Of a stretch of DNA of 64,000 nt, positions 33,533 through 47,904 are shown one piece after another. The stretch is from Gekko japonicus (lineage: Eukaryota): the NCBI RefSeq assembly GCF_001447785.1, contig NW_015173134.1, forward strand, positions 795,608-859,607, given 5' to 3'. Each line of letters starts with the position of its first letter. The first letter of the stretch is position 1. Made by a program: the position numbers and the translations under genes. Below the pieces are notes generated by a model that had not been told where the DNA came from, ran no database searches, and was given only the letters and a program-made list of their open reading frames with translations.

Positions 33533-33666
33533 CTTAATTTACTGCCACAATGGTGACACCGAAAGCATGATTTATGAAAGGTCTGTTTGTCGGCAACCAG
33601 ACACTCCATTGGATAAACTCTCTTTTGACAAAGTAGGCAGGTTTCCTTTCCCTGAACGTGCAGTTT
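33533..33666 (-). CDS. XIRP2: XIRP2 dual-frame exon (134 nt): LIM domain N-half in one frame, long-isoform C-terminus plus stop (33574-33572) in the other
   Basis: Acceptor atttatttctag|AAA and donor TTAAG|gtaaga. Phase-0 reading: [44 protein letters not shown](S). Phase-1 reading: [31 protein letters not shown]. Not in the ORF track. Confidence 0.95.
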
Positions 33667-33970
33667 CTAGAAATAAATGAGACAGGGTCTCAGTGCCATA
33701 TGTTATTATTCATTTTATTTTTTTCCTCAGGCTGTGCACAGACTGTTTCATCACCACAATGCAAACTGAAATACTTGGCTCACAAACAATTAACACCTAA
33801 GCCTCCAGTTTATAGAGTCAAATGAGATCCATGCTGCAATGAAACCTACCCCTTGGACTAAAATCATATATTTACTTTGAAGATGCGAACCACAAATTAA
33901 TGTTCAGACAGGAAGAGAGGGGGAAAGAGGAACTGGAAGTGACTTGCATTTCCTTTGTGCTGGGGCCTCC

Positions 33971-34369
33971 CAGGGCTCTTTTTGTAGAAAAAGCCCAGCA
34001 GGAACTCATTAGCATAATAGGCCACACCCAACAGCAAAATCCATTAGCATATTAGGCCACACCCTGACAGCACTGCTCATTAGCACATTAGGCCACACCC
34101 CCATGTTACCAGAAGTGTGGTCATCCAGCCACACCCACCTTTCCCTTCTTATTCTGTTTACCTTGTTTGTTGTCAAAACGGTTCCAGGGCTTTTTTTGTA
34201 GCAGGAACTCCTTTGCATGTTAGGCCACACACCCCTAATGTAGCCAATCCTAATGAGTTTCTGCTATTGGGTGTGGCCTATTATGCTAATGAAGTTCCTG
34301 CTGGGCATGGCCAACTCAGGAGCCAGCCGGAACTTCGTTCCTGTGGTTTCCTGCCCAAAAATAGCCCTG
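33971..34369 (+). mobile_element. CAGGGCT-TIR hAT MITE
   Basis: Termini identical to 7238-7560; flanking repeat GGCCTCC. Confidence 0.85.
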
Positions 34370-44500: not shown

Positions 44501-47500
44501 ACATCTACCTGTGGAATTTCTTCTGTAGCTACTCTTGTATCATTTTCATCAGTATCCTTAATGGAGTGTAAAGGCTGGTTTTCGAAAAGCCACACGGCAT
44601 GCTGAACATCACCTTCTTCTACCTCTTCCTTTGTTACCGTTTTAACATCTTTATACTCTGATCCCTCTCCTCTAATTTCGTCTATGGTATGTGTTTCAAA
44701 TAACCAAGTTGATGTTTTGACATTGCCTTTTTGTATTTCACTAACACTCACTGTTCTTACATACTGTTCTTTGGTCTCTTCAGACTCAAATAACTTCTTG
44801 CTGGCCTTCACATCACCACCTTGGACATGGTCCACTGTGGGGATGATGAATTTTTCCTCATCAGAAATGGTATCCAATGGTTGTGTTTCAAATCTATATC
44901 GAACAGAATTAACATCTCCTTTCTGGATATCCTCTTGGGTGACTGATTTTATAATGTACACATTATCTGATTTGTTTATTGATCCCAAGGGTTTTGTTTC
45001 AAACAGCCACCGAGTTCCACGTACATCCCCATGAATCACTTCTTCCTTCTTAACAGTAGTCACCTCATGATAATACCCTTCCTTGTCCTGAATCGCATAA
45101 AGTGGCTGGGTCTCAAAGAGCATTCTGTAGTTTTTCACATCTCCCTTTGTTATTTCTTCTTCACTCACAGTTTTCTTGGTGCTTATGTCTGTAGAAGATT
45201 CCTCTTTAATCTGGTCCAAAGAAAATGTCTCAAAGATAAAACAACCCTTTTGCACATTTCCACCTTGTACATCTGTAACTGTTTTAATTGTTGTCCTATC
45301 CTCTTGGTTCTCTGTTATTTCATCAATAGGCTGATTCTCAAAAAGCCAACAGCAATGCAAAACATTCCCTTTTTGTATGTCTTCACGCTGGATAGTCTTA
45401 ATTTTGTTCAATACTTCTTCTGTGCTGAAGTTTATAGAGTCTAATGTTTGGTTTTCAAACTTATACCTCATGGTGGAGACATCTCCAGGCTGGATATCAA
45501 TTTCTACTACTCGCTTGAGTTCCTCACTCTCTTCTCCTTGTATATTTTCTAGGTTTTCTGTCTCAAAAAGGAAACACGCAGTGCGGACATCACTACCCTG
45601 AATTTCTTCTTGCTTCGCTGTCTGCAGTTTCACAACTCTTTCTGAGTCTTCCCCTATTGCATCGAGAGGCTGGGTTTCAAAGAGCCAGGTACAGCTTTTG
45701 ACATCTCCTCTGTGTATCTCTTCATTATCAGTCACTGCCTCTTCTTTGTCATACAAGGATTCCATTGGCTGGGTTTCAAATAGCCACCTACACATTCTGA
45801 CATCCCCTTTGACAATTTCAGTGGAATCCATTTGAGCTTTGCTCTCTTCATCCTCCACATTAGAAAAGTATTTAATAGAGTCAAGAGGCTGAGTTTCAAA
45901 CAGCCATTTTGCTGTCTTCACATCGCCTGACTGAACTTCTTGGGAAGATATTCCTTTAATAATCTGAATTTTTTCAATACTCTCATCAAACTGGTCTATG
46001 GGCCTGGTCTCAAAGAGCCACCGGCAGTTTCTGACATCCCCTCTTAAGACTTCTTCTTGTCGAATTGTTTTCACCTCATGATATTTCCCAAGTCTGTCCT
46101 GTATTGCATACAGTGGAGTAGTTTCAAAAACAGCTGTGTTTAATTTGACTGCACCTCTTGTCACACCTTCAACATGGATTTTGTGCCTGTCATCATGTTT
46201 GCTTAACTTACAGGATTCAAATGCATGTTTGCAGCTGCTCACATTTCCCCTATCAATTTCCTCCAGTTTCACAGTTCTTATGAATTCTTTTCTTTCTTCT
46301 CTAATCTGTTCGAGAGGTTTAGTTTCAAAAATCAGTTTCTGGTGCTGCACATCTCCTTTTTCTTCCTCAGTGGCAGCCATTTTATGAAGTTTTCCAATGT
46401 CTGGGCTGTCTTTTAGCATGTCCATTGGCAATGTTTCAAACAAGTGTTTGGTAGTATTTACATCCCCTCCTATTATTTCTTCAGTCTGTAAAGGATTTGT
46501 ATCTTCACTTTCTTTTAAGGCATCAAGAGGCTGAGTCTCAAAAAGCCAGCATTTGCCACAGACATCACTACCTACAATGACTTCTTTTTCCACAACAGAT
46601 ATTTCAGACTCCTCTTTAATAGTGTCCAAAGGCTGTGTTTCAAAAAGCCATTTTGCCTTGCCTACTTCACCTTTGACATTCTCCTCCATAGAGATTCCAC
46701 GGACAACTTTGATTTCCAGAGAGTCTTTGTTAATCATGTCTATGGGATGTGTTTCAAACATCCAGCGCACCGTTCTGACATCCCCTCTCTCAAGTTCTTC
46801 TCTATGAACAGTTTTAATCTCTAGCATTTGGCCCAAATCATTCCTAATAACATACATTGGCAGAGTTTCAAAATGCCGTATACATCTCTTCACATCACCT
46901 TTAATCTCCTTTAGCTCAGACCTCAGCTGGAGCAACTTGGCTTCATCCACTGAGTACAGCTGCCCGAGTCTATCCAGATGCTGTGTTTCAAACATATACC
47001 TCACTGTTTTGACATCTCCACCAGCAATTTCCTCAGTGGCAGATTCATCAGATTCTTGTTCTTTCTCTTGAAGAATTTTATTCATGGAGTCCAAAGGCTG
47101 AGTTTCAAACATCCAAGTGGCTGTGCGGACATCTCCTCGAGCCAATTCAGGAATTTTGTCTTCACTTTCTGTATTATTTGAGGAATGTGCACTCAGCGCA
47201 TCTATGGGCTGTGTTTCAAACATCCATGTAGTATATTTCACATCTCCACCTGCAATGATTTCTTGATCTGCGATGCTTTTGATATTGCTTGGGTCAGGGG
47301 ATTCATCTTTGATTGAATCTAAAGGCTGGTTCTCAAACATCCACCTCATGGACTGAACTTCTCCTTTTAGGATTTCGTCCCATTCCAAGTACTCTCTCTC
47401 GGGACTCATGCACTTCTGGGGACTGCTTCCTGTGTTTTCAAAGAGGTGCTTAGCTTGACGTACATCTCCTGCTACTGAGCTACTGGTTTCTGCGTCACTA

Positions 47501-47904
47501 GACACTATCTCACAGACATCATTGAAATAATCTTTTTCTAAATTCTTTCTCAATTCTGGATGAATGTGTTTGTATAAACGTTTTAATTCATAGAGATTTC
47601 GTTGCTTGGAATACAAATCTTTGGGGAGGGTGTGCTTGGATGGAGAGGGAGAGGGTTCAGGGGACTGGGAAAACTCTGTCATTTCAGATGGAACCTGTAG
47701 TAAGTCTGGAGAGGGTGGAGGAGGAAACTCCTCTGAACTCCCATACTTAGAAGAGTTGCTGTAGGTTGTGGCTGAGGCTGCAGATGCATAGTCAGTTTTC
47801 CTTGCCATGTATATTTCCTGTTGTCTATTTGCAGAAGCAGATTCAACAGCAGAAGTAGTAAAGGCTGCCCATGGCTGGGCCATTTGTTGGTATTCATTTT
47901 CAAT
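38511..47904 (-). CDS. XIRP2: XIRP2 giant exon (9394 nt, phase 0-1): EVH1 ligand FPPPP, 28 Xin repeats, proline-rich region, C-terminal region
   Basis: 3126-aa ORF in which I count 28 copies of G[DEN]Vxxxx[WYF]LFE[TN]xP[LI]D. Acceptor ttttgtcccccaaag|ATT lies 7 codons upstream of the ORF-track Met; donor ATCAGTG|gtaaat. Confidence 0.98.
44460..47470 (-). repeat. Xin actin-binding repeat array (28 protein-level repeats)
   Basis: Runs from GDVRQAKHLFENT to VDVKTTTWLFETTPFH in the translated ORF. Boundaries approximate. Confidence 0.95.

What the first reader, a model, noticed from the sequence alone, without database searches (positions are those of the whole stretch)
33533..47904. Splicing-controlled frame switch: one 134-nt exon encodes two unrelated peptides
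Seen directly: the upstream exon ends in phase 0 (50177) and the giant exon is 9394 nt (3n+1). Inclusion makes exon 33666-33533 read [31 protein letters not shown] and leaves the 516-codon terminal ORF as UTR. Skipping makes it read a LIM N-half with all Cys/His ligands, running in frame into the terminal exon. The gene therefore makes either a Xin-repeat protein or a LIM/EPLIN-like protein, not both. Established: this arrangement is known in mammalian XIRP2 (short hair-cell isoform, XEPLIN), so it is not new. Inference: both frames are intact in a reptile, so the switch is at least amniote-wide. Automated annotation could miss it or fuse the isoforms.
Basis: partly seen in the sequence, partly recalled or inferred. 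Interest (0 to 1): 0.7.

Follow-up and report, generated by a model that had tools for sequence, protein, structure and literature searches.

The report
Gecko XIRP2 two-frame splice switch
In this gecko's muscle gene XIRP2, keeping or skipping one giant exon changes how the next small exon is read, so the gene likely makes either an actin-binding muscle protein or a zinc-finger (LIM) protein; this arrangement is already described in mouse and zebrafish, and database gene models show its short alternative ending at the same place from skates to mammals.

Summary
This is gecko XIRP2: a 9,394-nt (3n+1) Xin exon precedes a 134-nt exon that reads as a 31-residue tail plus stop after inclusion, or as the first half of a LIM domain after skipping. 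It is known: mouse (overlapping frames stated), zebrafish (long and short forms), and a human dual-coding catalogue, so "at least amniote-wide" understates print. Added here: 98 of 120 listed long orthologues stop at the same codon, skate too; the two two-fold LIM wobble sites that control that stop never change, while 7 of 7 others do. The stop lies 39 nt before the last junction, which likely avoids nonsense decay. Thirteen of 120 models wrongly or doubtfully fuse both proteins. Side results: neognath birds appear to keep only the LIM form, and this gecko's XIRP1 has LIM exons with all ligands behind it; the scan noted that XIRP1 layout before in sharks and rays. Verdict: real, already known, modest interest.

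The parts
56090..56197 (-). XIRP2 leader exon A (108 nt), shared by both forms
   Evidence: tblastn with gecko orthologues; AG/GT ends; A+B+C open in one frame
53678..53750 (-). leader exon B (73 nt)
   Evidence: the loose end of a contig at exon C matches the end of exon B
50177..50310 (-). leader exon C (134 nt), ends in phase 0 at ...KQIK
   Evidence: covered by contigs of runs X1 and X10
38511..47904 (-). giant Xin-repeat cassette exon, 9,394 nt (3n+1); its inclusion shifts the frame of the next exon
   Evidence: Pfam Xin, 20 stretches in the first 1,468 residues; joint 47904/50177 in contigs of 2 runs
38503..38510 (-). read-through end if the donor is not used: G-K-stop
   Evidence: sequence; 8 of 120 database entries end this way; real use not shown
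33533..33666 (-). dual-frame 134-nt exon: 31-residue tail of the long form, or LIM N-half of the short form
   Evidence: Pfam LIM 26.3 bits, cut-off 22.9; tail in orthologues
33572..33574 (-). TAA stop of the long form, made of the His wobble T and the AA of Lys in the LIM frame; 39 nt before the exon end
   Evidence: same position in 98 of 120 long entries
28975..30526 (-). [quoted passage not shown]
   Evidence: 72% identical to the leopard gecko model over 474 residues; held by 19 run assemblies in whole or part

Best explanation
This is the gecko XIRP2 gene, in which a 9,394-nt Xin exon of length 3n+1 sets the reading frame of the next 134-nt exon, so that inclusion likely gives a Xin-repeat protein ending in a 31-residue tail and skipping likely gives an EPLIN-like LIM protein. 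Shown in the sequence: exon sizes, phases and both translations. Shown in RNA-type contigs: the junction from leader exon C into the giant exon. Inferred from orthologues: the junction from the giant exon into the 134-nt exon, and the skipping junction. Inferred from mouse: the long form works in muscle and at hair-cell junctions, the short form in stereocilia. The long form's stop lies 39 nt before the last junction, inside the roughly 50-nt zone that escapes nonsense-mediated decay (rule recalled), which likely explains why earlier stops are never seen. The stop is also never lost, so the exact end of the tail, or a splicing signal under it, is likely under selection too.
For: Phases and translations. 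Best relatives are named XIRP2, up to 95% identical in a Gekko species. 98 of 120 listed long entries end at this stop (95 with 31 residues, 3 Xenopus with 30); 13 are fused models, 8 end in read-through, 1 ends otherwise. Skate, thorny skate and Arapaima models carry a 31-residue tail starting with E. On a tree of 97 proteins the Asp wobble (T would stop early) and the His wobble (C would lose the stop) show 0 changes; 7 other two-fold sites show 1-11; Fisher p = 0.028. The four-fold Pro wobble is A in 92 of 95 and the Ala wobble is never T in 96. Control: the LIMD2-like paralogue encodes the same VADK with GCT GAT AAA, giving two stops in the shifted frame. 91 of 119 short entries join an exon-C-like stretch to the LIM exon (gene models). 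Mouse: overlapping frames in exon 8 (PMC10259482). Zebrafish: both forms expressed (PMC3280289).
Against: No skipping junction was seen in this species: contigs of X1 and X10 run unbroken from exon C into the giant exon, and raw reads of X21 and X22 barely cover the gene (52 loose ends and 110 pieces were not shown). The orthologue evidence is gene models, many projected by homology. Much of the tail's conservation is forced by the LIM frame: the LIMA1-like paralogue's shifted frame is also open for 42 codons and looks similar. One non-stop two-fold site (second Cys) changes only once, so low change is not unique to the stop sites. The C-terminal motif shared by emu, seal, Polypterus and LIMA1 (LTVEEQIKRNR) is altered in both geckos compared.
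Confidence: 0.88

Rival explanations
1. The switch is real but the 31-residue tail has no job of its own: it is the shadow of the LIM frame, kept open only so that the long mRNA stops late enough to escape decay, and the fixed codons reflect splicing signals.
For: Two of three positions of each tail codon are set by the LIM protein. The LIMA1-like exon gives a similar open shifted frame without a known second product. The two early stops that are avoided would end 51 and 54 nt before the junction (arithmetic), at the recalled decay boundary.
Against: Decay does not explain why the stop is never lost: read-through would end 11 codons later, still in the safe zone, yet His stays CAT in all 97 tree rows. 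Four-fold Pro and Val wobbles are restricted to letters that keep N and L in the tail.
Confidence: 0.3
2. A fused Xin-plus-LIM protein is also made, through a second donor or a hidden exon, so the two products are not exclusive.
For: 13 of 120 long models are fused. A phase-0 GT at 38551 (GAA|GTGAGA) and a weaker one at 38575 would restore the LIM frame.
Against: The fused models printed break at different points near the exon end, none at the 38551 position, which looks like gene-prediction repair. Three gecko RefSeq or UniRef models (P0002, P0006, P0009) show the direct EF(I/L)(S/R)|ETA junction. The mouse paper describes differing frames for the two forms.
Confidence: 0.07
3. In this gecko the LIM form is no longer made and the terminal frame is a relic in the 3' UTR.
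For: No skipping seen in 4 runs; the last conserved motif of the terminal exon is altered in geckos.
Against: 516 open codons, about 6e-14 by chance; 72% identity to the leopard gecko over 474 of 474 residues tested; all eight zinc ligands present. The tissues of the runs are unknown and two runs hardly covered the gene.
Confidence: 0.05

Closest known systems
Mouse Xirp2 long and short forms (PMC10259482; passages and section 9 read)
   Same: Giant Xin exon (exon 7) included or skipped; LIM in exon 8 and C-terminal domain in exon 9; the paper states overlapping but differing reading frames and used a one-base change that stops only the short form.
   Different: Only the species. The passages read do not measure conservation of the second frame, the fixed stop or the decay geometry.
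Zebrafish xirp2a and xirp2b (PMC3280289; passages read)
   Same: Short leader exons, one large Xin exon, two 3' exons; long Xin forms and short LIM forms both expressed; called evolutionarily conserved.
   Different: The word 'frame' does not occur in that paper; teleost tails are more diverged.
Alternatively spliced dual-coding regions of human genes (PMC13160074 supplement S1; bioRxiv 10.64898/2026.05.28.727796, abstract and passages)
   Same: Human XIRP2 is listed as dual-coding region 720, three isoforms in one frame and four in the other. About 90 such regions are reported as kept across jawed vertebrates, so the age is not exceptional.
   Different: XIRP2 is not named in the main text of either preprint; the second one's supplements could not be seen and may list it. 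Here the shifting exon is 9.4 kb and swaps almost the whole protein.
LIMA1/EPLIN (paralogue in the same genome, G000 C15675; the name is assigned from recalled sequence features)
   Same: LIM exon of the same size and phases, next exon in the same phase, shared KL.I.WPP and KPKWPP motifs.
   Different: A separate locus; no Xin repeat match among the 24 found in the genome (150 of 299 candidates scored); no known second frame.

Membership tests
XIRP2 (Xin-beta) orthologues | Array of Xin repeats in one giant exon | tested here: met
   Pfam Xin 575 bits, 20 stretches in residues 1-1468; 3,131 open codons
XIRP2 (Xin-beta) orthologues | Closest relatives are XIRP2, and a separate XIRP1 exists in the genome | tested here: met
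   second Xin locus on G000 C12399
XIRP2 (Xin-beta) orthologues | Leader exons, giant exon, LIM exon, terminal exon in this order | tested here: met
   two further leader exons beyond the window
LIM domain proteins | Eight Cys/His ligands in LIM spacing | tested here: met
   N-half over the Pfam cut-off; C and H of the C-half read; zinc binding itself not tested
Alternatively spliced dual-coding regions | Transcripts exist that read the exon in each frame | tested here: inconclusive
Alternatively spliced dual-coding regions | Both frames kept and constrained across species | tested here: met
   98 of 120 same stop; 0 changes at both stop-controlling wobbles against 1-11 at 7 others, p = 0.028; inferred from proteins, not DNA
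Alternatively spliced dual-coding regions | Both products are translated | not testable with these tools
   No peptide data for the gecko; in mouse an antibody to the alternative frame of exon 8 stains the long form
Transcripts that escape nonsense-mediated decay | Stop within about 50 nt of the last junction (rule recalled) | tested here: met
   39 nt; assumes no further intron in the 3' UTR, which was not tested
LIMA1/EPLIN | Being the LIMA1 orthologue | tested here: not met
   A separate LIMA1-like locus exists. The short form resembles EPLIN in layout and motifs only

The most novel reading that the evidence does not exclude
The Xin exon is an ancient removable cassette inside an EPLIN-like gene, older than the XIRP1/XIRP2 split. 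XIRP2 kept both products through a frame switch whose stop codon has been fixed since the ancestor of jawed vertebrates because the tail's end matters; neognath birds then dropped only the Xin exon, so the published 'loss of Xin-beta in birds' is the loss of one exon, leaving a LIM-only XIRP2 in hair cells; and geckos still carry LIM exons behind XIRP1.
Probability: 0.5. Interest if true: 0.5.

Novelty: already known. Interest (0 to 1): 0.3.

Why it matters
The switch itself adds little, as it is in print for mouse and zebrafish. Three by-products have some use. (1) The fixed stop gives a clean test: a change silent for the LIM protein alters only the long protein's end. (2) If neognath birds lost only the Xin exon, they separate the hearing role of the gene from its muscle role and reconcile 'no Xin-beta in chicken' (PMC2478706) with strong XIRP2 expression in chicken hair cells (bioRxiv 10.64898/2026.09.02.748811). 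(3) About one in nine long database models fuses the two proteins, which matters for variant reading in this exon. The motifs shared with EPLIN are candidates for the unmapped strain-sensing part of the mouse C-terminal domain.

Tried and rejected
Run search: no RNA holder listed on record; 12 guessed-RNA assemblies of the same organism held 90% or more of the terminal exon's words; not used as evidence for either form. Raw reads X21 and X22 (about 12% of each read) hardly cover the gene and say nothing on skipping; the intron signal there comes from repeats. The junctions into and out of the 134-nt exon remain unlaid. The two primary 2015 papers (PMC4376604, PMC4315831) are not held; I saw their titles only, so they may already discuss birds, other species or the EPLIN likeness. 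The name XEPLIN appears in my calls only as a passing word. PMC13364712 mentions EPLIN and Xin only in references. Pfam finds nothing in the 474-residue C-terminal part. The protein atlas could not read the XIRP1-side exon. A leader profile from 48 XIRP2 proteins found both control exons but no leader exon in 84.5 kb around gecko XIRP1, nor in 20 kb at LIMA1, so a shared leader for the XIRP1 LIM exons is not shown. Three fetched stretches upstream of the window held no leader match; the exons lie further out. 'Frames intact in one reptile' was rejected as evidence. Relaxation of the second frame in neognath birds could not be tested, as no bird DNA was at hand.

Full report
What is in the sequence. 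The minus strand holds a XIRP2 gene; the closest listed relative is a Gekko protein at 95% over the region searched. Three leader exons lie at 56197-56090, 53750-53678 and 50310-50177 and chain in one open frame that ends in phase 0; two more lie beyond the window. The giant exon 47904-38511 is 9,394 nt, open for 3,131 codons, with 20 Pfam Xin stretches in its first 1,468 residues. The 134-nt exon 33666-33533 reads as a 31-residue tail and stop after inclusion and as a LIM N-half after skipping (Pfam LIM over the cut-off). The terminal exon starts at 30526 in phase 2 and is open for 516 codons. Unspliced read-through at 38511 would end in G-K-stop.

Is it more than chance? Within this genome the second frame is not remarkable: with random synonymous codons it stays open for 30 or more codons in about 16% of 20,000 draws. 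The terminal frame is: about 6e-14 at the intron's stop frequency, and 72% identical to the leopard gecko model over 474 residues. So the LIM form is very likely under selection in geckos, although its last conserved motif is altered in both geckos compared.

RNA. Contigs of two runs from two studies (X1, X10; RNA by guess) carry the joint 47904/50177 with canonical ends, and one confirms the exon B to C junction. Both run unbroken across 50177, so skipping is absent or rare there; contigs drop rare forms, 52 loose ends were not shown, and the tissues are unknown. The two raw-read runs hardly cover the gene.

Orthologues. A search with the end of the giant exon alone, blind to the tail, gave 170 hits among 284 candidates, of which 120 were listed. 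Of these 120, 95 end in a 31-residue tail and 3 Xenopus entries in a 30-residue tail at the same stop; 13 fuse Xin with LIM or terminal sequence; 8 end by read-through; 1 ends otherwise. None shows an earlier or later stop in this exon, though the 22 others could hide one. The set spans squamates, turtles, crocodilians, paleognath birds, mammals, amphibians and coelacanth. A profile-free HMMER search added 22 more distant proteins; of the ten looked up, the skate, thorny skate and Arapaima models have a 31-residue tail starting with E, herring- and characin-group teleosts have looser tails, and the Polypterus and grenadier models are fused. These are gene models, but each stop comes from that species' own DNA.

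Constraint on the second frame. Each tail codon is one LIM wobble base plus the first two bases of the next LIM codon, so wobbles can be read from the tails. On a FastTree tree of 97 proteins (96 of the 98 plus skate; P0011 and P0054 dropped for lack of the anchor motif) the Asp wobble, where T gives an early TAA, and the His wobble, which makes the stop, show 0 changes; seven other two-fold sites show 6, 1, 8, 11, 9, 6 and 4 (89-97 informative rows a site). Fisher p = 0.028 for 2 of 2 against 0 of 7. The Ala wobble is never T (which would give TGA), the Pro wobble is A in 92 of 95. In the LIMD2-like paralogue the same four residues use GCT GAT AAA and give TGA TAA in the shifted frame. Against over-reading: the LIMA1-like exon also has an open, similar shifted frame, one non-stop site is nearly fixed too, and splicing signals could cause some of this.

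Mechanism. Inclusion or skipping of the 3n+1 exon chooses the product. The long form's stop lies 39 nt before the last junction, inside the zone that escapes nonsense decay (rule recalled); the two avoided early stops would end 51 and 54 nt before it. That likely explains the open frame; it does not explain why the stop is never lost, since the next stop, 11 codons on, would be safe too. A phase-0 GT at 38551 could in principle fuse the two proteins; no printed fused model uses it.

What is known. Wagner et al. 2023 (PMC10259482; passages and section 9) state overlapping, differing frames in mouse exon 8, an antibody to the alternative frame, and a strain-sensing C-terminal domain. Otten et al. 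2012 (PMC3280289; passages) describe long Xin and short LIM forms in zebrafish as conserved. Human XIRP2 is dual-coding region 720 in the supplement of PMC13160074 (supplement rows only). A 2026 preprint reports 90 such regions kept across jawed vertebrates and does not name XIRP2 in its text (abstract and passages; supplements closed). PMC3810769 (passages) and PMC5005036 (passages) added nothing on frames. The two 2015 primary papers are not held.

Side result, birds. Among the 120 long entries the only named birds are six paleognaths; 50 weaker hits were not listed. By my count of names 103 of the 120 LIM-exon hits are neognath, in a search limited to 2,000 residues. All 35 members of six neognath clusters are 1,037 residues or shorter, and pigeon isoform X1 is 670; the three bird short proteins scanned have LIM and no Xin. 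An emu query for shorter remnants gave 3 hits among 511 candidates, none a bird. Grosskurth et al. [quoted passage not shown] Loss of the Xin exon alone would fit all of this; I put it at about 0.75 and had no bird DNA to test it. A search for XIRP2, birds and exon loss found 0 papers.

Side result, XIRP1. The genome's second Xin gene (G000 C12399, 2,571-codon frame with its own stop) has, 10 kb downstream on the same strand, a 125-nt LIM exon in phases 0 and 2 and a terminal exon with the remaining ligands and the KL.I.WPP motif, open for 543 codons and overlapping a 774-codon frame. There is no phase-1 donor at the end of its Xin frame, so no frame switch is apparent there, and no leader exon was found. 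I saw this before consulting earlier notes; the scan had noted the same layout in sharks and rays. A search for XIRP1, LIM domain, isoform and exon skipping listed two papers whose titles are on other topics.

Verdict. Real and correctly read, but already known. Interest 0.3, for the fixed stop and the bird and XIRP1 leads.

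Noticed in passing
protein hits (not in the window): Neognath birds appear to have only the short LIM form of XIRP2, paleognaths both; this may be the published 'loss of Xin-beta in birds'.
   Followed up: partly
G000:C12399:111464-111340 and 108977-105109, minus (L017, L018): A LIM exon pair with all eight ligands lies 10 kb behind gecko XIRP1; the terminal exon has two overlapping long frames (543 and 774 codons), perhaps one frame broken by a frameshift or assembly slip near an internal duplication.
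   Followed up: partly
G000:C15675:251050-253900 (L002, L009, L010); second copy of the LIM exon on C58782 (L003): The LIMA1-like gene has the same 134-nt LIM exon and phases as XIRP2; the exon is present twice in the assembly with identical printed sequence, likely an assembly duplicate.
   Followed up: partly
window 29040-28975, minus: The C-terminal motif LTVEEQIKRNR, shared by emu, seal, Polypterus and LIMA1, is altered in both geckos compared.
   Followed up: no
window 38551: A weaker phase-0 GT (GAA|GTGAGA) 40 nt inside the giant exon would fuse Xin and LIM frames if used.
   Followed up: partly
window 48750-49900: Repeat-derived stretch in the intron that attracts reads and contigs from elsewhere in the genome.
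   Followed up: no
window 2-529 and 4391-5154: Open frames of 129-208 codons that look like pieces of a LINE element (resemblance recalled, not tested).
   Followed up: no
L010 (G000:C15675, about 261700-262999, minus): A 410-codon open frame resembling a CR1-type reverse transcriptase lies downstream of the LIMA1-like gene (resemblance recalled).
   Followed up: no
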